A stretch of 32,000 bases of DNA from Candidatus Heimdallarchaeota archaeon. GTDB taxonomy: Archaea; Asgardarchaeota; Heimdallarchaeia; JABLTI01. The notes below the pieces were generated by a model. The model made no database searches. It worked only from the letters and a program-made list of their open reading frames with translations, and had not been told where the DNA came from. Location: assembly GCA_030614005.1 (NCBI GenBank), contig JAUWKS010000002.1, positions 1 through 32,000 on the forward strand, given 5' to 3'. Both the position numbers and the translations under genes were made by a program. Numbering within the stretch: the stretch's first letter is position 1; every line of letters begins with the position of its first letter. Below are positions 537-20,892 of this stretch, piece by piece.

Positions 537-1385
537 GTGTTAACATTGCTGGGGTCAATAGATTGCCGCAAGATTGTTGTGCTAGGCAATCCAAATGTTG
601 GAAAAACGAGTATTATACAACGGTATGTTCACAATCAATTTAAAACCAAATATTACGCCACTCTTGGTTTTAATATTTATACTCGATATATTGATATTGC
701 TGATAAAAAAGTTGGATTATCAATATGGGATGTCGGCGGACAAGAAGCTTTCAAGCAATTTGCTTTTCGATATTTGATTGAAGCAGATGCAGCTATTTTC
801 GTTGCTGATGTTTCTAGACCTGAAACCATTGAGAGTCTTTCTACTTGGAATGAGCAATTAGCTCAAGTCACCAATAGAAAAATACCTAAAATTATCCTTT
901 TCAATAAAATTGATTTGAATTATGATATGAATGTCATATCTGACGAAGTGATTAAATCCGAAGTCCGTAAAGAATTCAATGGAATTGTTTTTGCTAGTGC
1001 TAAAACTGGTCAGAATGTTATCGACATTTTTTCAATGATTGCAAAGATGCTCACTACGTGGGATGAAGAATTTGGTGTCCCTAGTAAAAGGAAAGTTCTC
1101 TTCAATAGCGCTTTTGAGGAAAAAACGTTACCTGTGATGTTCTTTTCAGGACCTAATTGTGATTTTTGTGAACCTGTTTTTAATAGATTAACAAACATTT
1201 CTTCAGAATATCCTATGAATATTGAAGTCGTAGATGTTGAAGCAGACAAAAATGCTGCAACTGAACACGGCATTCTTTCAATACCAACAACAATCATTGG
1301 AACTAAAATCATTGTTGGAGAATCTAATGAACAAATATTACGAACAATTGTTAGTGATGAATATATTCAGCTTTTTGGTAAATAG
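537..1385 (+). CDS. Rab-like small GTPase fused to a C-terminal thioredoxin/glutaredoxin-like domain
   Basis: G1 GNPNVGKT, G2 YATLG, G3 WDVGGQE, G4 NKID, G5 SAKTG; last ~85 aa FFSGPNCDFC (CxxC) ... GILSIPT (cis-Pro motif). GTG start; exact start uncertain. Confidence 0.88.
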   Translation: MLTLLGSIDCRKIVVLGNPNVGKTSIIQRYVHNQFKTKYYATLGFNIYTRYIDIADKKVGLSIWDVGGQEAFKQFAFRYLIEADAAIFVADVSRPETIESLSTWNEQLAQVTNRKIPKIILFNKIDLNYDMNVISDEVIKSEVRKEFNGIVFASAKTGQNVIDIFSMIAKMLTTWDEEFGVPSKRKVLFNSAFEEKTLPVMFFSGPNCDFCEPVFNRLTNISSEYPMNIEVVDVEADKNAATEHGILSIPTTIIGTKIIVGESNEQILRTIVSDEYIQLFGK

Positions 1386-2370: not shown

Positions 2371-3801
2371 ATGAAGCTTCCAGAAAAAGAAACTGAATTC
2401 CTTAAATGGTATTCTGAAGTAATTAGTTATGCTAATATTGTGGATAATCGTTCTCCCGTTAAAGGTGCTAATGTTCTTATGCCCTATGGATACTCTATTT
2501 GGGAGTCGATTAGAAATAAACTTGATGCTGAATTAAAGAAGACCGGCCATAAGAATGCTTATTTTCCTTTATTCATTCCTGAAGATTATTTAAAGCGCGA
2601 ATCTGAGCACTTTAAAGGGTTTATTCCAGAAGTTGCTTGGGTCACACATGCAGGTGACCGCAAACTTGATAGAAAGCTCGCTCTGCGTCCCACTTCTGAA
2701 ACTATTATGTATGAAATGTTTCATCTTTGGATTCGCAGTCATGTAGACCTTCCCTTTAAAATTAATCAATTCTGTAATATAATTCGTTTTGATACGAAAG
2801 AAACTAAACCTTTGCTCCGCGACCGAGAATTTCTCTGGTCAGAGGGGCACACTTGCCATGCAACGGCAGAAGAAGCAGAAGAACAAGTTAAAGAGTCAAT
2901 GGTTATTTACGAAAACGTTTATCGAGAAGCGTGTATGTCATTTTTGATTTTACGAAGACCAAAATATGACACTTTTGCTGGTGCAATTTATTCTATTGCT
3001 TATGATTCCCCTCTTCCAGATGGTCGTACTTTACAAATAGGAACTACTCATAATCTTGGCCAAGGTTTCAGCAAAGCTTTCGATATTACTTTCCAAGATA
3101 AGGACAAACAAAATAGGAATGTCCATCAAACATGTTATGGTCTTTCCACACGTCTTGTTGCAGCAATTATCGGATTACATGGTGATGAGAAAGGATTAAT
3201 CATTCCACCATTCATTGCACCTATTCAAATTGTTATTATTCCAATATATAAAAAAGACAACAAAGACGAAGTTATCGAAGCAGCAGAACAGATACTTAAA
3301 GTCTTACAAAAAGCAGGATTACGTGTTGAATTAGACAAAAGGGAAGGATATACACCTGGCTGGAAGTTTAATGAATGGGAAGTTCGGGGTGTACCTATTC
3401 GCTTAGAAATTGGCCCTAAAGACATTCAAAAAGAGCAAGTTGTTCTCGTTCGTCGTGATAACCGCGAAAAAGCATTTGTTCCTATGAAGGATGCTGCTAA
3501 AAAATCGAAAACTATTTTGAAGAACATGCATAAATCCCTCCAAAAACGTGCAGATAAATTGCTTAAAGATAGTATCAGTCATCCAAAAGATTACGAAGAG
3601 CTTAAAGAAATACAGAAAACCAAACGAGGTTTTTGCCGTGCTAATTGGTGTGGCGATGAAGCTTGTGGTGAAAAAGTCAAAGATGATACTGGCGCTGATA
3701 TCCGAGGAACACGTGAAGATATCAAAGAAGAACCAGATGGCAACTGTATTATTTGTGGCAAGAAAGCTAAAGAAATGGTTTACATTGCTCCAGCCTATTA
3801 G
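2371..3801 (+). CDS. proS: Prolyl-tRNA synthetase, archaeal/eukaryotic type
   Basis: LRPTSETIMY, QFCNIIRFD, REFLWSEGHT, QIGTTHNLGQ, GLSTRL; anticodon domain PGWKFNEWEVRGVPIRLEIGP; C-terminal Zn Cys cluster and terminal APAY. Confidence 0.98.
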   Translation: MKLPEKETEFLKWYSEVISYANIVDNRSPVKGANVLMPYGYSIWESIRNKLDAELKKTGHKNAYFPLFIPEDYLKRESEHFKGFIPEVAWVTHAGDRKLDRKLALRPTSETIMYEMFHLWIRSHVDLPFKINQFCNIIRFDTKETKPLLRDREFLWSEGHTCHATAEEAEEQVKESMVIYENVYREACMSFLILRRPKYDTFAGAIYSIAYDSPLPDGRTLQIGTTHNLGQGFSKAFDITFQDKDKQNRNVHQTCYGLSTRLVAAIIGLHGDEKGLIIPPFIAPIQIVIIPIYKKDNKDEVIEAAEQILKVLQKAGLRVELDKREGYTPGWKFNEWEVRGVPIRLEIGPKDIQKEQVVLVRRDNREKAFVPMKDAAKKSKTILKNMHKSLQKRADKLLKDSISHPKDYEELKEIQKTKRGFCRANWCGDEACGEKVKDDTGADIRGTREDIKEEPDGNCIICGKKAKEMVYIAPAY

Positions 3802-3898: not shown

Positions 3899-4312
3899 AT
3901 GGCTGAAGATCCCGAAGTTCAAAGAAAAATCTATCAACTTCTCCGAGAAATTGGTGAATATACTGATTTGGAGGCGTTAGCTGTCGTTAATCGTGAAGGT
4001 ATGAAAATTTCCTTCTTTGCAAAGCAAGATGCCAATGCCGATCTTATCTCAGCTATTTCTGCAGCAATACTGTCAACTGGTGAACAAGCTGTTTCTATTA
4101 ATGAGCATGGTGAATTGCTTGAAGTGCTTGTGAGAGGAGAACATGGATTTACCATATTAACGAATGCTGGTGATTATATCCTAATTGGAACATCTTTAGA
4201 GCTTAATGCTATGGGTTTAACAATTAGGGTTTTACGCAAATATGCCACTAAATTGAAAGACATCATCGGTGGGGAATGTCAGGATGATTTAGGGCCCATT
4301 AGTTTAGAATGA
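3899..4312 (+). CDS. Roadblock/LC7 (MglB-like) domain protein
   Basis: ALAVVNREG ... DLISAISAAILSTGEQAV ... GELLEVLVRGEHGFTILTNAG ... MGLTIRVLRKYATKL: typical roadblock pattern and size. Confidence 0.9.
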   Translation: MAEDPEVQRKIYQLLREIGEYTDLEALAVVNREGMKISFFAKQDANADLISAISAAILSTGEQAVSINEHGELLEVLVRGEHGFTILTNAGDYILIGTSLELNAMGLTIRVLRKYATKLKDIIGGECQDDLGPISLE

Positions 4313-4337
4313 AAATTTAAAGTGGTTCGAGAAAAAC

Positions 4338-5615
4338 ATGACTGTTCCGTTTGAGCTTCAAATGATTCATAGACTTTCGGGAGTACAGCTTTTTTCCCAT
4401 CGTTTTAGAGAAGACATTAAGCTTGAACCTACACTAATCTCTGGTTTTATATCTGCAGTAATTACTTTTGCAGAGGAGTTGAAACCTTCTGATGGAAAGG
4501 AAATCATCACATTTATTGATAGAGGTGATTTTGTTTTACAAGTAGAACCCGGTGAGCGTGTCATTGGGCTCCTCATCTTAAGTTGTAAAGATTCATCATT
4601 TAAAGAAAAGTTGAGAATCCTTGTTGAAGAATTTGAAAACCGTTATCATGCTCTAATTGTAGATTGGAGTGGTATTTCTTCAGGATTTGATGATTTTGAA
4701 GATGATGTTAAACAACTTATTTCCCGTAAACCTATTAGTCCGTATCATATTCCAAAATTAGTTGATACTGATCGAGCACCAAAGAAACTAGATGATATGA
4801 AATGGGCTATTATTACTCGTATAAATGGTAAAAATGATATTACTACAATCAGTGAGGAATTAGAAATAAGCATTGATGTTGTTCAAAGTATCATTTCGTA
4901 TTTTGAAGAGTCAGGGTTAGTAAAAACCTATTTTGAAATCAGTGATGAGAGCATGTTAGAACTTACTAAAAAAGGGTTAAATGCTCTTGAAGTAGGATCA
5001 GATGGCTATAATGAAATTAATCATTTGATAGGTGAATATGGCATCAAAATATTGTCACTCATTGGCACAGAAAGATCATTACTAGACATTAAGAAGAAAG
5101 TAAAATTATCTCATGAACGAGTTTGTGAATTAGTTGAAAAACTTGTATCCGAACGTTTTCTAGAAGTGCTTCCTAAATGGAAAGTTGTTCTCGATAAGAA
5201 CGCATTTCAATTCACACGTTCCCTTGAGTTTATTGACGATCTCTTCCAACTTATTTATGATGAATCAGATAGTTGGTTAGATGTACGAGCACTTACACGT
5301 ATGAAAAGAAATACTGCCGCTCTTCTGCTCATCAAAGATGAAGAACTCGCCCGTTTAATTAGTGATAGTAATGAATACTTAATCGATCGAAACAATCTGA
5401 AGAAAGTCCTCAGTTCTGAGGTAAATCTTAAGTCTATTGCTGAGCGATTAGAAACGCTTTTCAAAGTTTTACAAAACAATATCGAACGTGAGATCGGGTC
5501 AAATCTTACACGAGGTATTATGTGTAAAGTTTACAAACGGTTGAATTCAGATTATACTGAATTAATTAAACAACAAACAGAACTTGATATTATGATAAAT
5601 TGGTTAAATCAATAA
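4338..5615 (+). CDS. Longin-like domain + tandem winged-helix protein (NPRL2-like architecture)
   Basis: N-terminal SGVQLFS...TLISGFISAVITFAEEL...FENRY...W.G..F..F longin pattern; PYHIPKL then RINGKNDITTISEELEISIDVVQSIISYFEESGLV (wHTH); second wHTH around SLLDIKKKVKLSHERVCELVEKLVSERFL. 25 nt after the roadblock gene. Confidence 0.7.
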   Translation: MTVPFELQMIHRLSGVQLFSHRFREDIKLEPTLISGFISAVITFAEELKPSDGKEIITFIDRGDFVLQVEPGERVIGLLILSCKDSSFKEKLRILVEEFENRYHALIVDWSGISSGFDDFEDDVKQLISRKPISPYHIPKLVDTDRAPKKLDDMKWAIITRINGKNDITTISEELEISIDVVQSIISYFEESGLVKTYFEISDESMLELTKKGLNALEVGSDGYNEINHLIGEYGIKILSLIGTERSLLDIKKKVKLSHERVCELVEKLVSERFLEVLPKWKVVLDKNAFQFTRSLEFIDDLFQLIYDESDSWLDVRALTRMKRNTAALLLIKDEELARLISDSNEYLIDRNNLKKVLSSEVNLKSIAERLETLFKVLQNNIEREIGSNLTRGIMCKVYKRLNSDYTELIKQQTELDIMINWLNQ

Positions 5616-5665: not shown

Positions 5666-6880
5666 CTATATTTTTTTCATGAATCTTTCAAGTCGATCCA
5701 TAGCATCACTGATTATTTCTTCTTGGGAAAGGAATACTAATCTGAAATAACCGCTACCATATGTCGGATCAAATCCGCTTCCAAATACTCCAACCACTCC
5801 TTCTTCCTTTAATAGTGCAAGAATGAATTCCTTATCGTTTTTGTATTTTCCAAGGTTCTCAATTTTAGGAAAGATATAGAAAGCCGCTTCTGGTTTTTGA
5901 GTTGAAATACCATCAATTTCATTTAATCGCTTGTAGATAATATCTCTACGTTTTCTTAATTTTTCAACTGTTTCTTTGATGTGATCTTGTGGACCTGTTA
6001 AAGCCTCAGTACATCCATATTGAGCTGGTGTGTTGACACATAACCTCAATCGGCCCAGTTTAATTATTCCATCATAGACTTCTCTGAGTTTATCTTCTGG
6101 GTCTTGGAGGTAACAATACCCAACACGCCATCCCGGCATTAAATAGACTTTAGAGAAACCATTCATCATAAACAATGGAACATCCTTTGCAACCGAAGGC
6201 ATGCCAATGAATTTCTGATCAAACGACAATCGATCATAGATTTCATCTGCAATTATTGGCAAATCATGTTCACCTGCAATATCTACAATATGTTTCAATT
6301 CTTTTTCTCGATATACTGCACCAGTAGGATTATTTGGATTAATAATCAGAATTGCTTTTGTTTTATCAGTTATTTTACTTCTAATATCATCTTCATCAGG
6401 TTGCCAATTATCAGTACTAACAGTGCGATAAGTGACACTTTTAGCATCATAAAATTTTGGAAATGCCATATAGGACGGATAGGCAGGACCTGGAATTAAA
6501 ATCTCATCCCCAGGACTTAAAAGAGAAGCAAAAAGAAACATTATTCCTTCTGAAATCCCAGCTGTGACATGTATATCGTCAATTGAGAGGTTCTTTGCTC
6601 CATTTATTTTCGTCTCTTTTTCAACAATTGCTTCACGCAACGAAACAATACCTTGTGATTCTGAATAGAAACTCTTGTTTTCACGTGCAGCTTTTACAAA
6701 AGCATCAACAATATTTTTCGGTGTTTCGAAATCGTATTTATTTGGATCACCAATATTTAACCAAATTAAATCCTTTCCTTGAGCAGATAGTTTCCTCGCT
6801 TCAGCACTGATATCTCGAATAGCATATTCCAACCCTCTCACTCTTGGGGCTTGAATTAATTCTCTGGATGCATCAACCAT
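5666..6880 (-). CDS. PLP-dependent class I/II aminotransferase (alanine/aspartate aminotransferase-like)
   Basis: WLNIGDP, YSESQG, NPNNPTG, DEIY, FSKVYLMPGWRVGY (PLP lysine), AAFYIFP; GGTGA SD-like motif upstream on the minus strand. Confidence 0.95.
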   Translation of the reverse strand: MVDASRELIQAPRVRGLEYAIRDISAEARKLSAQGKDLIWLNIGDPNKYDFETPKNIVDAFVKAARENKSFYSESQGIVSLREAIVEKETKINGAKNLSIDDIHVTAGISEGIMFLFASLLSPGDEILIPGPAYPSYMAFPKFYDAKSVTYRTVSTDNWQPDEDDIRSKITDKTKAILIINPNNPTGAVYREKELKHIVDIAGEHDLPIIADEIYDRLSFDQKFIGMPSVAKDVPLFMMNGFSKVYLMPGWRVGYCYLQDPEDKLREVYDGIIKLGRLRLCVNTPAQYGCTEALTGPQDHIKETVEKLRKRRDIIYKRLNEIDGISTQKPEAAFYIFPKIENLGKYKNDKEFILALLKEEGVVGVFGSGFDPTYGSGYFRLVFLSQEEIISDAMDRLERFMKKI

Positions 6881-8559: not shown

Positions 8560-9549
8560 TCAAATTGCAAGAATTGTGAGTGCGGGAACAACAATATAGA
8601 ATCGCTTCTCATTTGCTAATTTATAATTTATTATTGTTCTAGGAAGATATAATTCTCCTTTTCTCACTGGTTTTAATCTAAAAGTTTCAACAATAGTAGT
8701 TTCATAATTCAATTGATCGATTATTCGATGAGGATACATCGAAGATAATTTAAAATCTAACCCTGGGTTAAAATTAAGGTCAACAGACCATGCAACTCCC
8801 ATGCCAGTATTTGATATTCGTATTTGAATATAGCAATCTTCTTTCGCTTTTATCAAATCACTGACAATATACTCCCCTTCTAATACTGGTTTAGCACTTT
8901 GCTCGGAAGGCAATAGTTGTTTTGCTTTTAGTGCTGCCAATTGTGGTGGAGCGATTCCTTCGAGCGCATATAACGCAGAAAGTTCTTCATGTGAGATAGT
9001 ATCTGAGAAGCCTCGCGTAATTCCTTGTTCTTCTAAAAACTTAGTGAGAAGGTCAGGGTACATAGCTGTGGTTTCTATTTGAATGTCCAGCTCACGATAT
9101 TCCCGTCCTCTATGTTCGTCATCCATATATACTTGGTATCCGTGAATTCCCGGTTCTATTGAAGTTATTTTTGTTGGATCGCAAACTAAAGCAATTGCAT
9201 TTTCAAAGAGGCTTTGTTGATACCGTTGTGTTCTGATATCAACTCCAGATAGGAAAAAACCAAATGAGGGATGACTGTGGAACCAACCAACAATGACTGC
9301 ATTGATACTTTCTGCTTCCTCTGCAATTTTTGGTATAATAGTATAATCAGACATTTCAACAAAAATAGAACTTCCGCTTGTCATCGGGATAGCTTTGACT
9401 ACTGTTACTGTCTCTCCTTCTACTGTACCAACAAGCCAGCCAATCACTTCCCTCCATTGTCTATATGGTCTTTCAGGATTAGCAAATTCAATGACATATT
9501 TGAACATTTGTTGATATGCTTCATCATTTATTATAACCGATTGAATCAT
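8560..9549 (-). CDS. Rpn11/CSN5-like JAMM (MPN+) metalloprotease with C-terminal Ig-like beta-sandwich
   Basis: REVIGWLVG (catalytic Glu), VVGWFHSHPSFGFFLSGVDIRTQ (H-x-H-x7-S-x2-D); C-terminus IQIRISNTGMGVAWSVDL...F.LKPVRKGEL.LP..IINY is beta-sandwich-like. Confidence 0.88.
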   Translation of the reverse strand: MIQSVIINDEAYQQMFKYVIEFANPERPYRQWREVIGWLVGTVEGETVTVVKAIPMTSGSSIFVEMSDYTIIPKIAEEAESINAVIVGWFHSHPSFGFFLSGVDIRTQRYQQSLFENAIALVCDPTKITSIEPGIHGYQVYMDDEHRGREYRELDIQIETTAMYPDLLTKFLEEQGITRGFSDTISHEELSALYALEGIAPPQLAALKAKQLLPSEQSAKPVLEGEYIVSDLIKAKEDCYIQIRISNTGMGVAWSVDLNFNPGLDFKLSSMYPHRIIDQLNYETTIVETFRLKPVRKGELYLPRTIINYKLANEKRFYIVVPALTILAI

Positions 9550-9636
9550 TTTTACTCATCTTTTCTATTTGGTTGAAAGTTCTAATATCGTATCTAATTA
9601 CTAAAAGTAAAACTTGCCTATAAAGACTTTTGAATT

Positions 9637-18600: not shown

Positions 18601-19870
18601 CAGTTATGCCAAATCATTAAGAAAAGTATATCGGGCAAGATTTTCAGAGTTTGCTAAGAAGGTATTTGTACCTTTAGGAGAATTCATTGATGAAATGACT
18701 GTTATGGATGATGCACTAAACCTTTCTGTAAAACTCCTAAAAGATCGAATTGAAAACCCCTCAATTCGAATTGACAATATAGTGCTCAAACTTTACGATT
18801 ATGGAATTATTGCACGAAAAATCGAATTTGCTAATAAAGGTACTCTACAAACTGCCAGTGGAGATTTAGTAGATTATTATTATTTGAAAATGCCTTCCGG
18901 AAGACAAAAACAATTAATTTACGACCTTGTATCTGATTTTTTGGATTCAGAAGAACTTCCAATTCAATTAATATTTGTTTCAGCGTGGGCTAGAACTGGA
19001 TGGGATGTACGAACACCAGATATTCTTATCGATGCTACAGCAACTCGAGACGTTACAGCGTGGCAACAATTACGTGGACGAGCTATGAGAGCTTTAGAGA
19101 GCTGGACAATAGACTGCTATAAAACAATTGCAGTATTGCTCGGAAAAGCTGGGACAGCTAATCAAATTTTTGAAAGATTACCACTTGAAATGCAACAAAA
19201 TTTTCAAAAGATTCGGAAAGAATTTACTCCTAAAAAAGAGTTAACGTCAGAGATGATTGATTTACTTGATGTTTCTATAGATGAATCCAAACTTCCTTCT
19301 GAAGAAAAAGTAGTTCTAAAAGCAAAAGTAAATGAGGGATCATTAGATAAACTTTCTACAAATGAACGTATGAAATTAATCATTTATCTAATGCTCTCTA
19401 AAAACAAAGTTGCGCATATTTTCGAGATGGTAAAAGCATCTGGTTCAACAAAACAAGTTGAATTTAATAAAAAAGATGGTCTCTGGCGCAGAAAAGCAGC
19501 AATAGCTAAGAAGCATAGAGATGAACCTATTTTACCTGTACCTGGAGCTGAACGACGACGTGGAAAATATATTGCCCCACTTGTTTACTCAAAAGATCCT
19601 ACAATGGATACACCAGCAGAAGTAAAAACTACCTTAAAAAATCTATTACAAGGATTAGATGAAGATTTACTTGATAATTGGGTTCTATCCTTAGTAGAAG
19701 AAAACGTTGCAGATGAAAGTGTAACTGCAAATTCTGAAGTAGATCAAGAACGGAAAAAACTCGAAGAGCTAGCTCTCCGAGAGGAGAGAATGAAAAAAGT
19801 AGAAGTTGATGGAGTATCTGAAGATATATTAAGGGAGTTCCTAAGTGGAATTGATTCAATAGAATTCTAA
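15644..19870 (+). CDS. Large SF2 (DEAH, ResIII/XPB-like) helicase with long N-terminal extension and insertions
   Basis: Q-motif PRPYQ, motif I SPTGSGKT (~aa 461), Ia LVLVPT, II DEAH (~577), III SGT (~613), V TGWDV (~1118), VI QQLRGRAMR (~1141). Likely start ATG 15653. Confidence 0.9.
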   Translation: MQNMFKRFFGWIKKVFRKVKIEPETPIEDISTTEEDEVVDETIYMEEYSPDIFAVTEGDQPLFDEEKDLERQVIELKKTKEVTQSVDDILNQISSEEDIFQVLGADDFWNATGYCTTVQEKFSKVLQENDVEQQLKYFWRTNKMYMRSVEAYRDALAQNDMLRGRVMLLNIRMLYDVLIEMRRLNSKVIPKPQTIDMEMRKEYVKDVLVEILEKSNIPLSIKEILEEVQKGEEKFVLELLRAESIQFYLETLVEEEFIKRIERVIDLAPPPLPYIPAEITAAIPDTIFEYTFAPDVKMYRREDIGREELSALFPPEIYKGLQENGFYRIEDVYGKLDELQKILLEKLHFEPDMTTISIGILRERIGREEARPKKVDLDEQKSLISKRLKDKELQKKSEKTTPEDVEIKEKVATATKVKKPKSNILKIPHQDIINSPIPRPYQLEAYYMFKGEKYNGNIIDSPTGSGKTLMGMMCIQDWIRKLRFNESILVLVPTQNYQSQWVDSICFNEIGLQISPSFVFSGTITQLENFIQKTREIPPIIILTYTSLAQVLGAKTKKEKELRQLINWLGIRHVIFDEAHKIVEQEGSATNEVAKRLVKIFKGAHIENLIGFSGTAKAYEKDFKKLKLKLIYIVPEKELIIHGFVAPIAELGVTFAYSGREKAIRELHNELKMNMKQLWNYFGDNNLRREFQKIPMNDRLFICKELLGMYQSYRRDMVNEKLKSKFLDWAPNREKGPLSLIDTNLVQAVQIYNGWSDISLAYNSQHTNAAREIVEETEQLVMRLEKLIRIPSLQKMIKSEKYGKRMPKRKTFYDIRKESKDRRETSKKVRNIMCSSMVGIYKALDTWARTKIGEGRVGTFQSIINAEEEIRDVKGVVIFDTGRTIKVEDDTGIGSPGFSGVGGSFAQSLSTNILRYNPIAVQSSEMYISFNPDLEKPLHVMMAEYVRNEVIVGKLTERIFMELIFELPFQEQLSNFMYLTFKELMSSYAKSLRKVYRARFSEFAKKVFVPLGEFIDEMTVMDDALNLSVKLLKDRIENPSIRIDNIVLKLYDYGIIARKIEFANKGTLQTASGDLVDYYYLKMPSGRQKQLIYDLVSDFLDSEELPIQLIFVSAWARTGWDVRTPDILIDATATRDVTAWQQLRGRAMRALESWTIDCYKTIAVLLGKAGTANQIFERLPLEMQQNFQKIRKEFTPKKELTSEMIDLLDVSIDESKLPSEEKVVLKAKVNEGSLDKLSTNERMKLIIYLMLSKNKVAHIFEMVKASGSTKQVEFNKKDGLWRRKAAIAKKHRDEPILPVPGAERRRGKYIAPLVYSKDPTMDTPAEVKTTLKNLLQGLDEDLLDNWVLSLVEENVADESVTANSEVDQERKKLEELALREERMKKVEVDGVSEDILREFLSGIDSIEF

Positions 19871-20538: not shown

Positions 20539-20892
20539 GTGAGAAATATGAACACGAAAAGTGGAAGTTCAGAAAAAATGTTTGGAGAATATATTGATTT
20601 TGTTACTTCTAAAGCAGATTCTAGTACTGCAACTGATAGTACGAAAATAACAGGTAAAGCACTGAATTTCACTTTAAATAATATTGGACGGTGGTCTCTT
20701 GAAGAGAAAAAAGCAGCTGTTTGTATGATTTGTAAGCTTTACTTGAAATCAAATCAGAATGCTACACAATGCCCTATGTGTGAATCAATGTTTCATCACA
20801 AACATATTACAGATTGGCTTAGGGTAAAGGGAAAATGCCCTGTCTGTCAACAGAATCTTCGAATAGAAAGTCTGCAAAGAGTTAATCTTTAA
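20539..20892 (+). CDS. RING-finger protein (putative E3 ligase-like)
   Basis: C-x2-C-x12-C-x2-C-x4-H-x2-H-x3-W-x6-CPVC at the C-terminus. Confidence 0.85.
   Translation: MRNMNTKSGSSEKMFGEYIDFVTSKADSSTATDSTKITGKALNFTLNNIGRWSLEEKKAAVCMICKLYLKSNQNATQCPMCESMFHHKHITDWLRVKGKCPVCQQNLRIESLQRVNL

What the first reader, a model, noticed from the sequence alone, without database searches (positions are those of the whole stretch)
3899..5615. Roadblock + longin-wHTH pair resembling Rag/Ragulator-GATOR1 (NPRL2) building blocks
The two genes are 25 nt apart. The second has a longin domain followed by IPKL...I..I(N/D)G...I..IS.E...(I)..V, matching my recollection of the post-longin winged-helix segment of eukaryotic NPRL2/NPRL3. 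Roadblock folds make up Ragulator and the Rag C-termini. Roadblock and longin proteins are known in Asgard archaea; an NPRL2-like gene coupled to a roadblock gene would hint at an ancestral nutrient-signalling GAP module, and it directly follows proS.
Basis: partly seen in the sequence, partly recalled or inferred. Interest (0 to 1): 0.68.

Follow-up and report, generated by a model that had tools for sequence, protein, structure and literature searches.

The report
Asgard NPRL2-like adaptor beside roadblock gene
This Asgard archaeon has a real relative of the eukaryotic nutrient-signalling proteins NPRL2/NPRL3, but the family is already known, this copy lacks the catalytic motifs, and it sits next to the roadblock gene in only one lineage, so it is probably an ordinary GTPase-pathway adaptor and not an ancestral GATOR1–Ragulator module.

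Summary
Both genes are real, on the same strand and 25 nt apart. The genome is a Heimdallarchaeia archaeon.

The NPRL2 resemblance holds. A family profile of residues 131-278 finds human NPRL2 171-325 as its best natural PDB hit (E 3.4e-6; MarR 5e-4), and all 13 significant Foldseek hits are GATOR1/SEA chains. The architecture is longin, two winged helices and an extra all-helical domain.

The GAP-module reading is not supported. The longin lacks the GP motif and the long Arg-finger loop, the winged helices are acidic, and other genes in the genome do carry GP plus Arg, one beside a Rag-like GTPase.

The pairing is confined to one family and sits inside a conserved ~10-gene block. The roadblock is a pan-Asgard ortholog whose partners elsewhere are proS, a gelsolin-like gene or the aminotransferase. 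Asgard NPRL2-like proteins were reported by Liu et al. (bioRxiv 2020.10.19.343400). This scan noted the same pair in three other genomes.

Verdict: a new member of a known family, most likely a non-catalytic adaptor.

The parts
2371..3801 (+). Prolyl-tRNA synthetase (proS), an older neighbour of the roadblock gene; context, not part of a module
   Evidence: Pfam; proS-roadblock adjacency also in G012, G016, G026, G030, G032 and G082, none followed by the longin gene where the contig extends
3899..4312 (+). Roadblock/LC7 (MglB-like) protein, 137 aa; conserved Asgard ortholog group
   Evidence: PF03259 E 4e-10; PDB hits MK-D1 Roadblock3 9jue E 8e-12 and Thor RB 7f8m E 3e-11; orthologs 41-53% identical across Heimdallarchaeia and related copies phylum-wide
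4313..4337 (+). 25-nt intergenic gap (23-40 nt in most relatives, but 131 and 161 nt in two)
4338..4727 (+). Longin domain (aa 1-130); no GP motif (SGVQ at the beta1-beta2 loop)
4521..4523 (+). Arg62 of the DRGDF beta3-beta4 hairpin: the only invariant Arg of the close family; by topology at the opposite end of the sheet from the GAP finger
   Evidence: 33/33 close homologs and 11/49 distant ones; topology is inferred from the strand order
4545..4562 (+). Tight beta4-beta5 turn (EPGERV), where GAP longins have a long Arg-finger loop; R74 is not conserved
   Evidence: column 74 is Leu in 18/33; loop longer than 7 residues in only 2/129 family rows
4728..5171 (+). Linker plus two tandem winged helices (aa 131-278), homologous to NPRL2 166-327; acidic
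5172..5615 (+). C-terminal all-alpha domain (aa 279-425), not aligned to NPRL2/3; fold unassigned
   Evidence: model pLDDT 90.7, pTM 0.84
5666..6880 (-). Convergent class I/II aminotransferase, as conserved next to the pair as the roadblock is; its ortholog lies beside the roadblock ortholog in Thorarchaeota-like genomes
   Evidence: (L151-L153)

Best explanation
The 425-aa protein is one lineage-specific paralog of the widespread Asgard longin + tandem winged-helix family, the archaeal relatives of NPRL2/NPRL3. It most likely works as a non-catalytic adaptor in small-GTPase signalling, functionally closer to NPRL3 than to NPRL2. Shown: the architecture, the homology of the winged-helix part to NPRL2, the absence of the GP motif and Arg-finger loop, and acidic winged helices. 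Inferred from longin biology: the longin dimerises (with itself or another longin) into a platform that holds a small GTPase, while the winged helices and helical tail bind other proteins and not DNA; any catalytic Arg would come from a partner. The roadblock is a separate, older, MglB-like homodimeric GTPase regulator. The NPRL2-like gene appears to have landed between it and the aminotransferase in the ancestor of this one family, so the adjacency is mostly inherited synteny, possibly with co-transcription.
For: Homology to NPRL2/Npr2. Family present in 104 of 151 Asgard genomes, up to 8 copies, with a second paralog in this genome (C34:58623-59885). GP in 1/129 rows and a long beta4-beta5 loop in 2/129; GP and Arg finger mark the catalytic GAP longins and are absent from NPRL3 and FNIP2 (PMC12290439). 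Recognition helices net -3. Distant members sit in same-strand runs with small GTPases: L194 directly before two Ras/Arf-family genes; L138 in a run with a longin-Arf-like GTPase. Roadblock orthologs outside the family have no longin neighbour and keep proS, gelsolin-like or aminotransferase neighbours. About 10 unrelated genes around the pair are equally conserved.
Against: No binding partner or GTPase has been shown. Most family members examined (29 loci, about 1.5 kb flanks) have no small GTPase or roadblock neighbour. The pair is same-strand with a 23-40 nt gap in most relatives, and a chance roadblock neighbour for one of two such paralogs is only about 1% (11 roadblock ORFs among 4440 ORFs of 80 aa or more; rough estimate). 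A second Asgard lineage (Thorarchaeota-like and G155) also keeps a roadblock near such genes, although convergent and from different paralogs.
Confidence: 0.55

Rival explanations
1. Cognate two-gene module: the roadblock and the NPRL2-like protein are co-expressed and act together on one small GTPase, like the actinobacterial conservon, where a roadblock GAP (MfpD/CvnB) and an HTH-domain DUF742 GEF (MfpC/CvnC) serve one GTPase.
For: Adjacent and same-strand in every testable member of the family, including the most divergent. DUF742 is hit by 4 of 82 family members (best E 9.7e-5), and MfpC is a reported GEF (PMC11343762). A Rab-like GTPase-thioredoxin gene lies three genes upstream of the roadblock on the same strand (537-1385). 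An independent roadblock neighbourhood exists in Thorarchaeota-like genomes.
Against: The adjacency is absent in every other Asgard lineage examined. The gap reaches 131-161 nt in two relatives, and one relative lacks the upstream Rab gene. Unrelated flanking genes are equally conserved. Asgard GTPases are generally not in operons with their regulators (PMC10933270).
Confidence: 0.22
2. True arginine-finger GAP: a catalytic NPRL2 equivalent in a proto-GATOR1, acting on a Rag-like GTPase in amino-acid sensing.
For: The best sequence and fold matches are GATOR1/SEACIT chains. R62 is invariant in the close family. The genome encodes a Rag-like GTPase-roadblock protein (C4:40601-41560, Gtr1_RagA E 5e-15).
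Against: No GP motif and no Arg-bearing long loop. The longin profile does not hit NPRL2, and its fold is closer to Sec22b and TRAPP longins. R62 is on the beta3-beta4 hairpin and kept in only 11/49 distant members. Pfam NPR2 finds nothing in this genome. Better GAP candidates with GP plus Arg exist elsewhere in the genome.
Confidence: 0.07
3. One-component transcription regulator: the longin is a sensor or dimerisation domain and the winged helices bind DNA.
For: Weak Pfam wHTH hits (HTH_45 E 1.4e-4), MarR/Lrp hits in PDB, and automatic 'predicted transcriptional regulator' labels.
Against: Both recognition helices are acidic (net about -3 across 33 homologs) and both wHTH domains are net negative on average. 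NPRL2, not known as a DNA binder (own knowledge), outscores MarR by two orders of magnitude and covers both helices plus the linker.
Confidence: 0.1

Closest known systems
Asgard 'NPRL2-like' proteins (Liu et al., bioRxiv 10.1101/2020.10.19.343400, Fig. 5c)
   Same: Longin plus NPRL2-type C-terminal segment. The family profile built here recovers multi-copy homologs across Asgard, including Thorarchaeota.
   Different: That paper names most Thor and a few Loki MAGs. This is a Heimdallarchaeia clade (SH-aLRT 100) with a roughly 147-aa helical tail and a roadblock neighbour. I could not check the asCOG assignment.
NPRL2 / NPRL3 (yeast Npr2 / Npr3), longin subunits of GATOR1/SEACIT
   Same: N-terminal longin followed by linker and tandem winged helices; 131-278 aligns with NPRL2 166-327.
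   Different: No GP motif and no Arg78-type loop; longin sequence not detectably similar; helical C-terminal domain not aligned to NPRL2/3; no evidence for a DEPDC5-like or NPRL3-like partner.
FLCN/SMCR8-type Asgard GAP longins (PMC12290439)
   Same: Longin fold in Heimdallarchaeia.
   Different: They carry GP plus the Arg finger and this protein does not. The genome's own candidates are C74:33055-34308 and C4:41611-42672.
MglB / Asgard roadblock homodimers (Thor-RB 7f8m, MK-D1 Roadblock3 9jue) and Ragulator LAMTOR2/3
   Same: Roadblock fold; clear sequence match to the two Asgard structures.
   Different: No sequence hit to Ragulator chains; a single roadblock gene with no LAMTOR1-like scaffold or second roadblock beside it.
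Actinobacterial conservon (Cvn/Mfp: histidine kinase, roadblock, DUF742, Ras-like GTPase)
   Same: Roadblock gene next to an HTH-containing gene.
   Different: No histidine kinase, no directly adjacent GTPase, and the HTH protein is a longin fusion.

Membership tests
Asgard NPRL2-like family (Liu et al.) | Longin domain followed by NPRL2-type C-terminal segment | tested here: met
   Model and fold search; profile hit to NPRL2
Asgard NPRL2-like family (Liu et al.) | Assignment to the same asCOG | not testable with these tools
   asCOG tables not consulted; homologs named Thorarchaeota recovered
NPRL2/NPRL3 (GATOR1) | N-terminal longin fold | tested here: met
NPRL2/NPRL3 (GATOR1) | Tandem winged-helix segment homologous to NPRL2 166-327 | tested here: met
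NPRL2/NPRL3 (GATOR1) | Match to Pfam NPR2 (PF06218) or HTH_NPRL3 (PF24064) above cut-off | tested here: not met
   No such hit for this protein; two distant relatives hit PF24064 weakly, best E 4.5e-5
Catalytic GAP longins (NPRL2, FLCN, SMCR8) | GP motif at the beta1-beta2 loop | tested here: not met
   SGVQ in this family; GP in 1/129 rows; definition from PMC12290439
Catalytic GAP longins (NPRL2, FLCN, SMCR8) | Conserved Arg finger on the longin loop next to the GP motif (beta4-beta5; that placement is from own knowledge and topology) | tested here: not met
   Tight turn, R74 not conserved; a residue-level superposition on NPRL2 Arg78 was not available
GATOR1 | Longin heterodimer with a paralog, plus DEPDC5 | not tested
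   A second paralog exists (C34:58623-59885); the dimer was not modelled and DEPDC5 was not searched
GATOR1 | GAP activity on a Rag GTPase | not testable with these tools
   Needs biochemistry
Roadblock/LC7 (MglB-like) | PF03259 above cut-off and match to solved roadblocks | tested here: met
Ragulator | Two roadblock heterodimers on a LAMTOR1 scaffold, binding Rag C-domains | tested here: inconclusive
   Single roadblock gene with no second roadblock within 1.5 kb and no LAMTOR hit by sequence; complexes formed in trans were not tested
Ancestral roadblock + NPRL2-like module | Pairing conserved beyond one lineage | tested here: not met
   Present only in family f1; absent beside roadblock orthologs in about 35 other Heimdallarchaeia (a few loci end at contig edges) and 21 other Asgard genomes, and beside the nearest longin-wHTH relatives

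The most novel reading that the evidence does not exclude
The roadblock and the NPRL2-like protein form a real, lineage-specific GTPase-regulating complex in a Heimdallarchaeia family close to eukaryotes. The protein would serve as a non-catalytic NPRL3-like subunit, with the Arg supplied by a GP/Arg longin of the same genome such as C4:41611-42672, acting on the Rag-like GTPase encoded beside that gene. That would be a proto-GATOR1/Rag circuit assembled from genes at two loci.
Probability: 0.1. Interest if true: 0.75.

Novelty: new member of a known kind. Interest (0 to 1): 0.3.

Why it matters
It confirms with profile and structure evidence that the longin + tandem winged-helix architecture of NPRL2/NPRL3 exists in Heimdallarchaeia, which extends a family first reported mainly from Thor and Loki. 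In this genome, NPRL2's two hallmarks appear on different proteins: the winged-helix segment here, and the GP/Arg catalytic longin elsewhere. That helps choose which Asgard proteins to assay as GATOR1 precursors. The roadblock pairing adds little unless a complex is shown.

Tried and rejected
Co-fold of longin (1-135) with roadblock (1-126), both with alignments: verdict 'no answer', score 0.00 against a mark of 0.32, controls not folded; not counted for or against binding.

Single-sequence PDB and Pfam searches gave no NPRL2 hit, and the shallow 34-sequence profile gave only E 0.07. The longin-only profile hit nothing meaningful in PDB. Pfam NPR2 found nothing in this genome and only two sub-threshold hits in 200 Asgard genomes, both longin-wHTH proteins.

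No eukaryotic NPRL2 sequence could be fetched, so no tree with NPRL2 and no residue-level Arg78 superposition was possible; I did not type sequences from memory. Two papers on the finger's position were not held.

Rejected readings: R74 as a finger (not conserved); proS linkage as evidence of amino-acid sensing by the longin gene (the link belongs to the roadblock and predates the pair); the Thorarchaeota tandem paralog pair as the NPRL2/NPRL3 duplication (the two copies are sister clades within that lineage). The side candidate C4:41611 gave no informative PDB hit and no profile match to this family.

Full report
OBSERVATION. The window is contig C9:1-32000 of a 3.6-Mb, 90%-complete genome. 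Its close homologs are labelled Heimdallarchaeota or Asgard; from memory of those assemblies it is probably Gerdarchaeales, which I did not test. ORF 3899-4312 (137 aa) is a Roadblock/LC7 protein (PF03259, E 4e-10). ORF 4338-5615 (425 aa) follows after 25 nt, proS precedes, and an aminotransferase converges from the other side.

CATALYTIC MOTIFS. The catalytic GAP longins (NPRL2, FLCN, SMCR8) have a GP motif at the beta1-beta2 loop next to an Arg finger; NPRL3 and FNIP2 lack GP (PMC12290439). Arg78 of NPRL2 is on a longin loop (PMC8534245). That this is the beta4-beta5 loop is my own knowledge and fits the topology. Here the beta1-beta2 loop reads SGVQ and beta4-beta5 is a tight EPGERV turn whose Arg74 is Leu in 18 of 33 close homologs. 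Across 129 distinct family members, GP occurs once and a long loop twice. The one invariant Arg, R62 (DRGDF), sits on the beta3-beta4 hairpin at the other end of the sheet and is kept in 11 of 49 distant members. The same genome has longins that do carry GP plus Arg. C74:33055-34308 matches Pfam Folliculin above cut-off. C4:41611-42672 has invariant FDSxxGP and DPNxxRKKRQFG motifs and directly follows a Rag-like GTPase-roadblock gene in the relatives whose contigs extend far enough. Both recognition helices of the window's protein have net charge near -3 across the family, which argues against DNA binding.

IS THE PAIR CONSERVED? Within the family, yes. Nine same-genus genomes show proS-roadblock-longin (one split over two contigs), as do three more divergent contigs. 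But the convergent aminotransferase is equally constant, and in two contigs about ten unrelated genes keep the window's order. The gap grows to 131 and 161 nt in two of them. Outside the family the pair dissolves. The roadblock has 41-53% identical orthologs across Heimdallarchaeia and related copies across Asgard. None of their loci holds a longin gene: about 35 Heimdallarchaeia genomes, a few cut by contig ends, and 21 others. Their recurring neighbours are proS (six genomes), a gelsolin-like gene (ten loci by sequence likeness, one confirmed by Pfam) and the ortholog of the window's aminotransferase (L151-L153). The simplest history, inferred, is that the NPRL2-like gene entered an older proS-roadblock-aminotransferase neighbourhood in this family's ancestor. 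The nearest relatives of the longin gene have no roadblock neighbour, nor does the second paralog in this genome.

THE WIDER FAMILY. The profile finds longin-wHTH genes in 104 of 151 Asgard genomes, up to 8 per genome. The window's clade is well supported (100) but unplaced among the subfamilies. A few independent members sit with small GTPases (L194, L138). A Thorarchaeota-like tandem pair converges on an operon containing a different roadblock. Most members have no such neighbour. This is suggestive of a role in GTPase signalling but does not prove it.

MECHANISM. Most likely (0.55) the protein is a non-catalytic adaptor. The longin would dimerise into a GTPase-binding platform, as longin and roadblock dimers do generally (PMC10933270), and the acidic winged helices and helical tail would bind proteins; these steps are inferred. 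The roadblock is most likely an MglB-like homodimer. The rivals are a cognate roadblock + wHTH regulator pair as in actinobacterial conservons (0.22), a DNA-binding regulator (0.10), and a true Arg-finger GAP (0.07).

COMPARISON AND NOVELTY. Liu et al. (bioRxiv 10.1101/2020.10.19.343400) already reported an Asgard family with longin plus the NPRL2-type C-terminal domain. PMC12290439 reported GP/Arg longins in Heimdallarchaeia. The protein is built like NPRL2/3 but fails the catalytic membership tests. I found no paper on this roadblock pairing. Earlier AI notes of this scan flagged the same pair in three other genomes and NPRL2-like proteins in at least 22; they are not independent support.

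VERDICT. This is a new member of a known kind; interest 0.3. The Rag-like GTPase + GP/Arg longin pair on contig C4 is the better lead for a GATOR1- or folliculin-like GAP.

Noticed in passing
G000 C4:40601-42672 (L172:3602-5673, L177-L188): Rag-like GTPase-roadblock gene (Gtr1_RagA E 5e-15) directly followed by a 353-aa protein with invariant GP and DPNxxRKKRQFG motifs. It is found in all 12 family genomes and the pair is kept where contigs extend. A better GAP-Rag candidate than the finding; fold not predicted.
   Followed up: partly
G000 C74:33055-34308 (L173:5056-6309, -): FLCN-like protein (PF11704 E 1.6e-5, above cut-off) with GP and ARGG motifs, flanked by response-regulator-like genes and near a small GTPase gene.
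   Followed up: partly
G000 C49:17731-21396 (L176): Same-strand run: Arf-like GTPase, P-loop plus longin protein, GP-motif longin-like protein, Rab-like GTPase.
   Followed up: no
G000 C123:58009-59247 (L174:4010-5248): 412-aa protein with a GP-type N-terminus and a C-terminal winged helix that matches the family wHTH profile (E 9e-4).
   Followed up: partly
G000 C34:58623-59885 (L089:6624-7886): Second longin + two-wHTH paralog, overlapping an ODP-family (oxygen-binding di-iron) gene; no roadblock neighbour.
   Followed up: partly
L123-L134 (e.g. L123:4798-6476), L137: Thorarchaeota-like genomes carry a tandem pair of longin-2xwHTH genes converging on an operon of coiled-coil gene, 334-aa gene, roadblock and radical SAM gene. 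In G155 a single copy converges directly on the roadblock.
   Followed up: partly
L194:1225-3366: Distant homolog (347 aa) directly upstream of two small GTPase genes on the same strand, the first degenerate at the P-loop.
   Followed up: partly
L147-L149, L151-L155, L158, L160: Across several Asgard lineages the roadblock ortholog follows a gelsolin-like gene (Pfam Gelsolin E 1.4e-4 in L155 only): a deeper conserved pairing than the one in the finding.
   Followed up: partly
window 537-1385 (+): Rab-like GTPase fused to a C-terminal thioredoxin domain, in the same strand run as trm61, proS and the pair; missing in one relative (L193).
   Followed up: partly
window 8560-10269 (-): JAB/MPN domain protein with a TRAP-beta-like C-terminal part next to a second Rab-like GTPase; the arrangement is kept in L192 and L193.
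   Followed up: no
window 11833-15499 (+): Actin-like (ALP_N/MreB-like) gene followed by two unknown genes and a degenerate Arf/Ras-like gene, then a 1408-aa SF2 helicase-like gene (15644-19870).
   Followed up: no
window 20539-20892 (+): Small RING-finger protein (zf-RING_2, E 1e-6).
   Followed up: no
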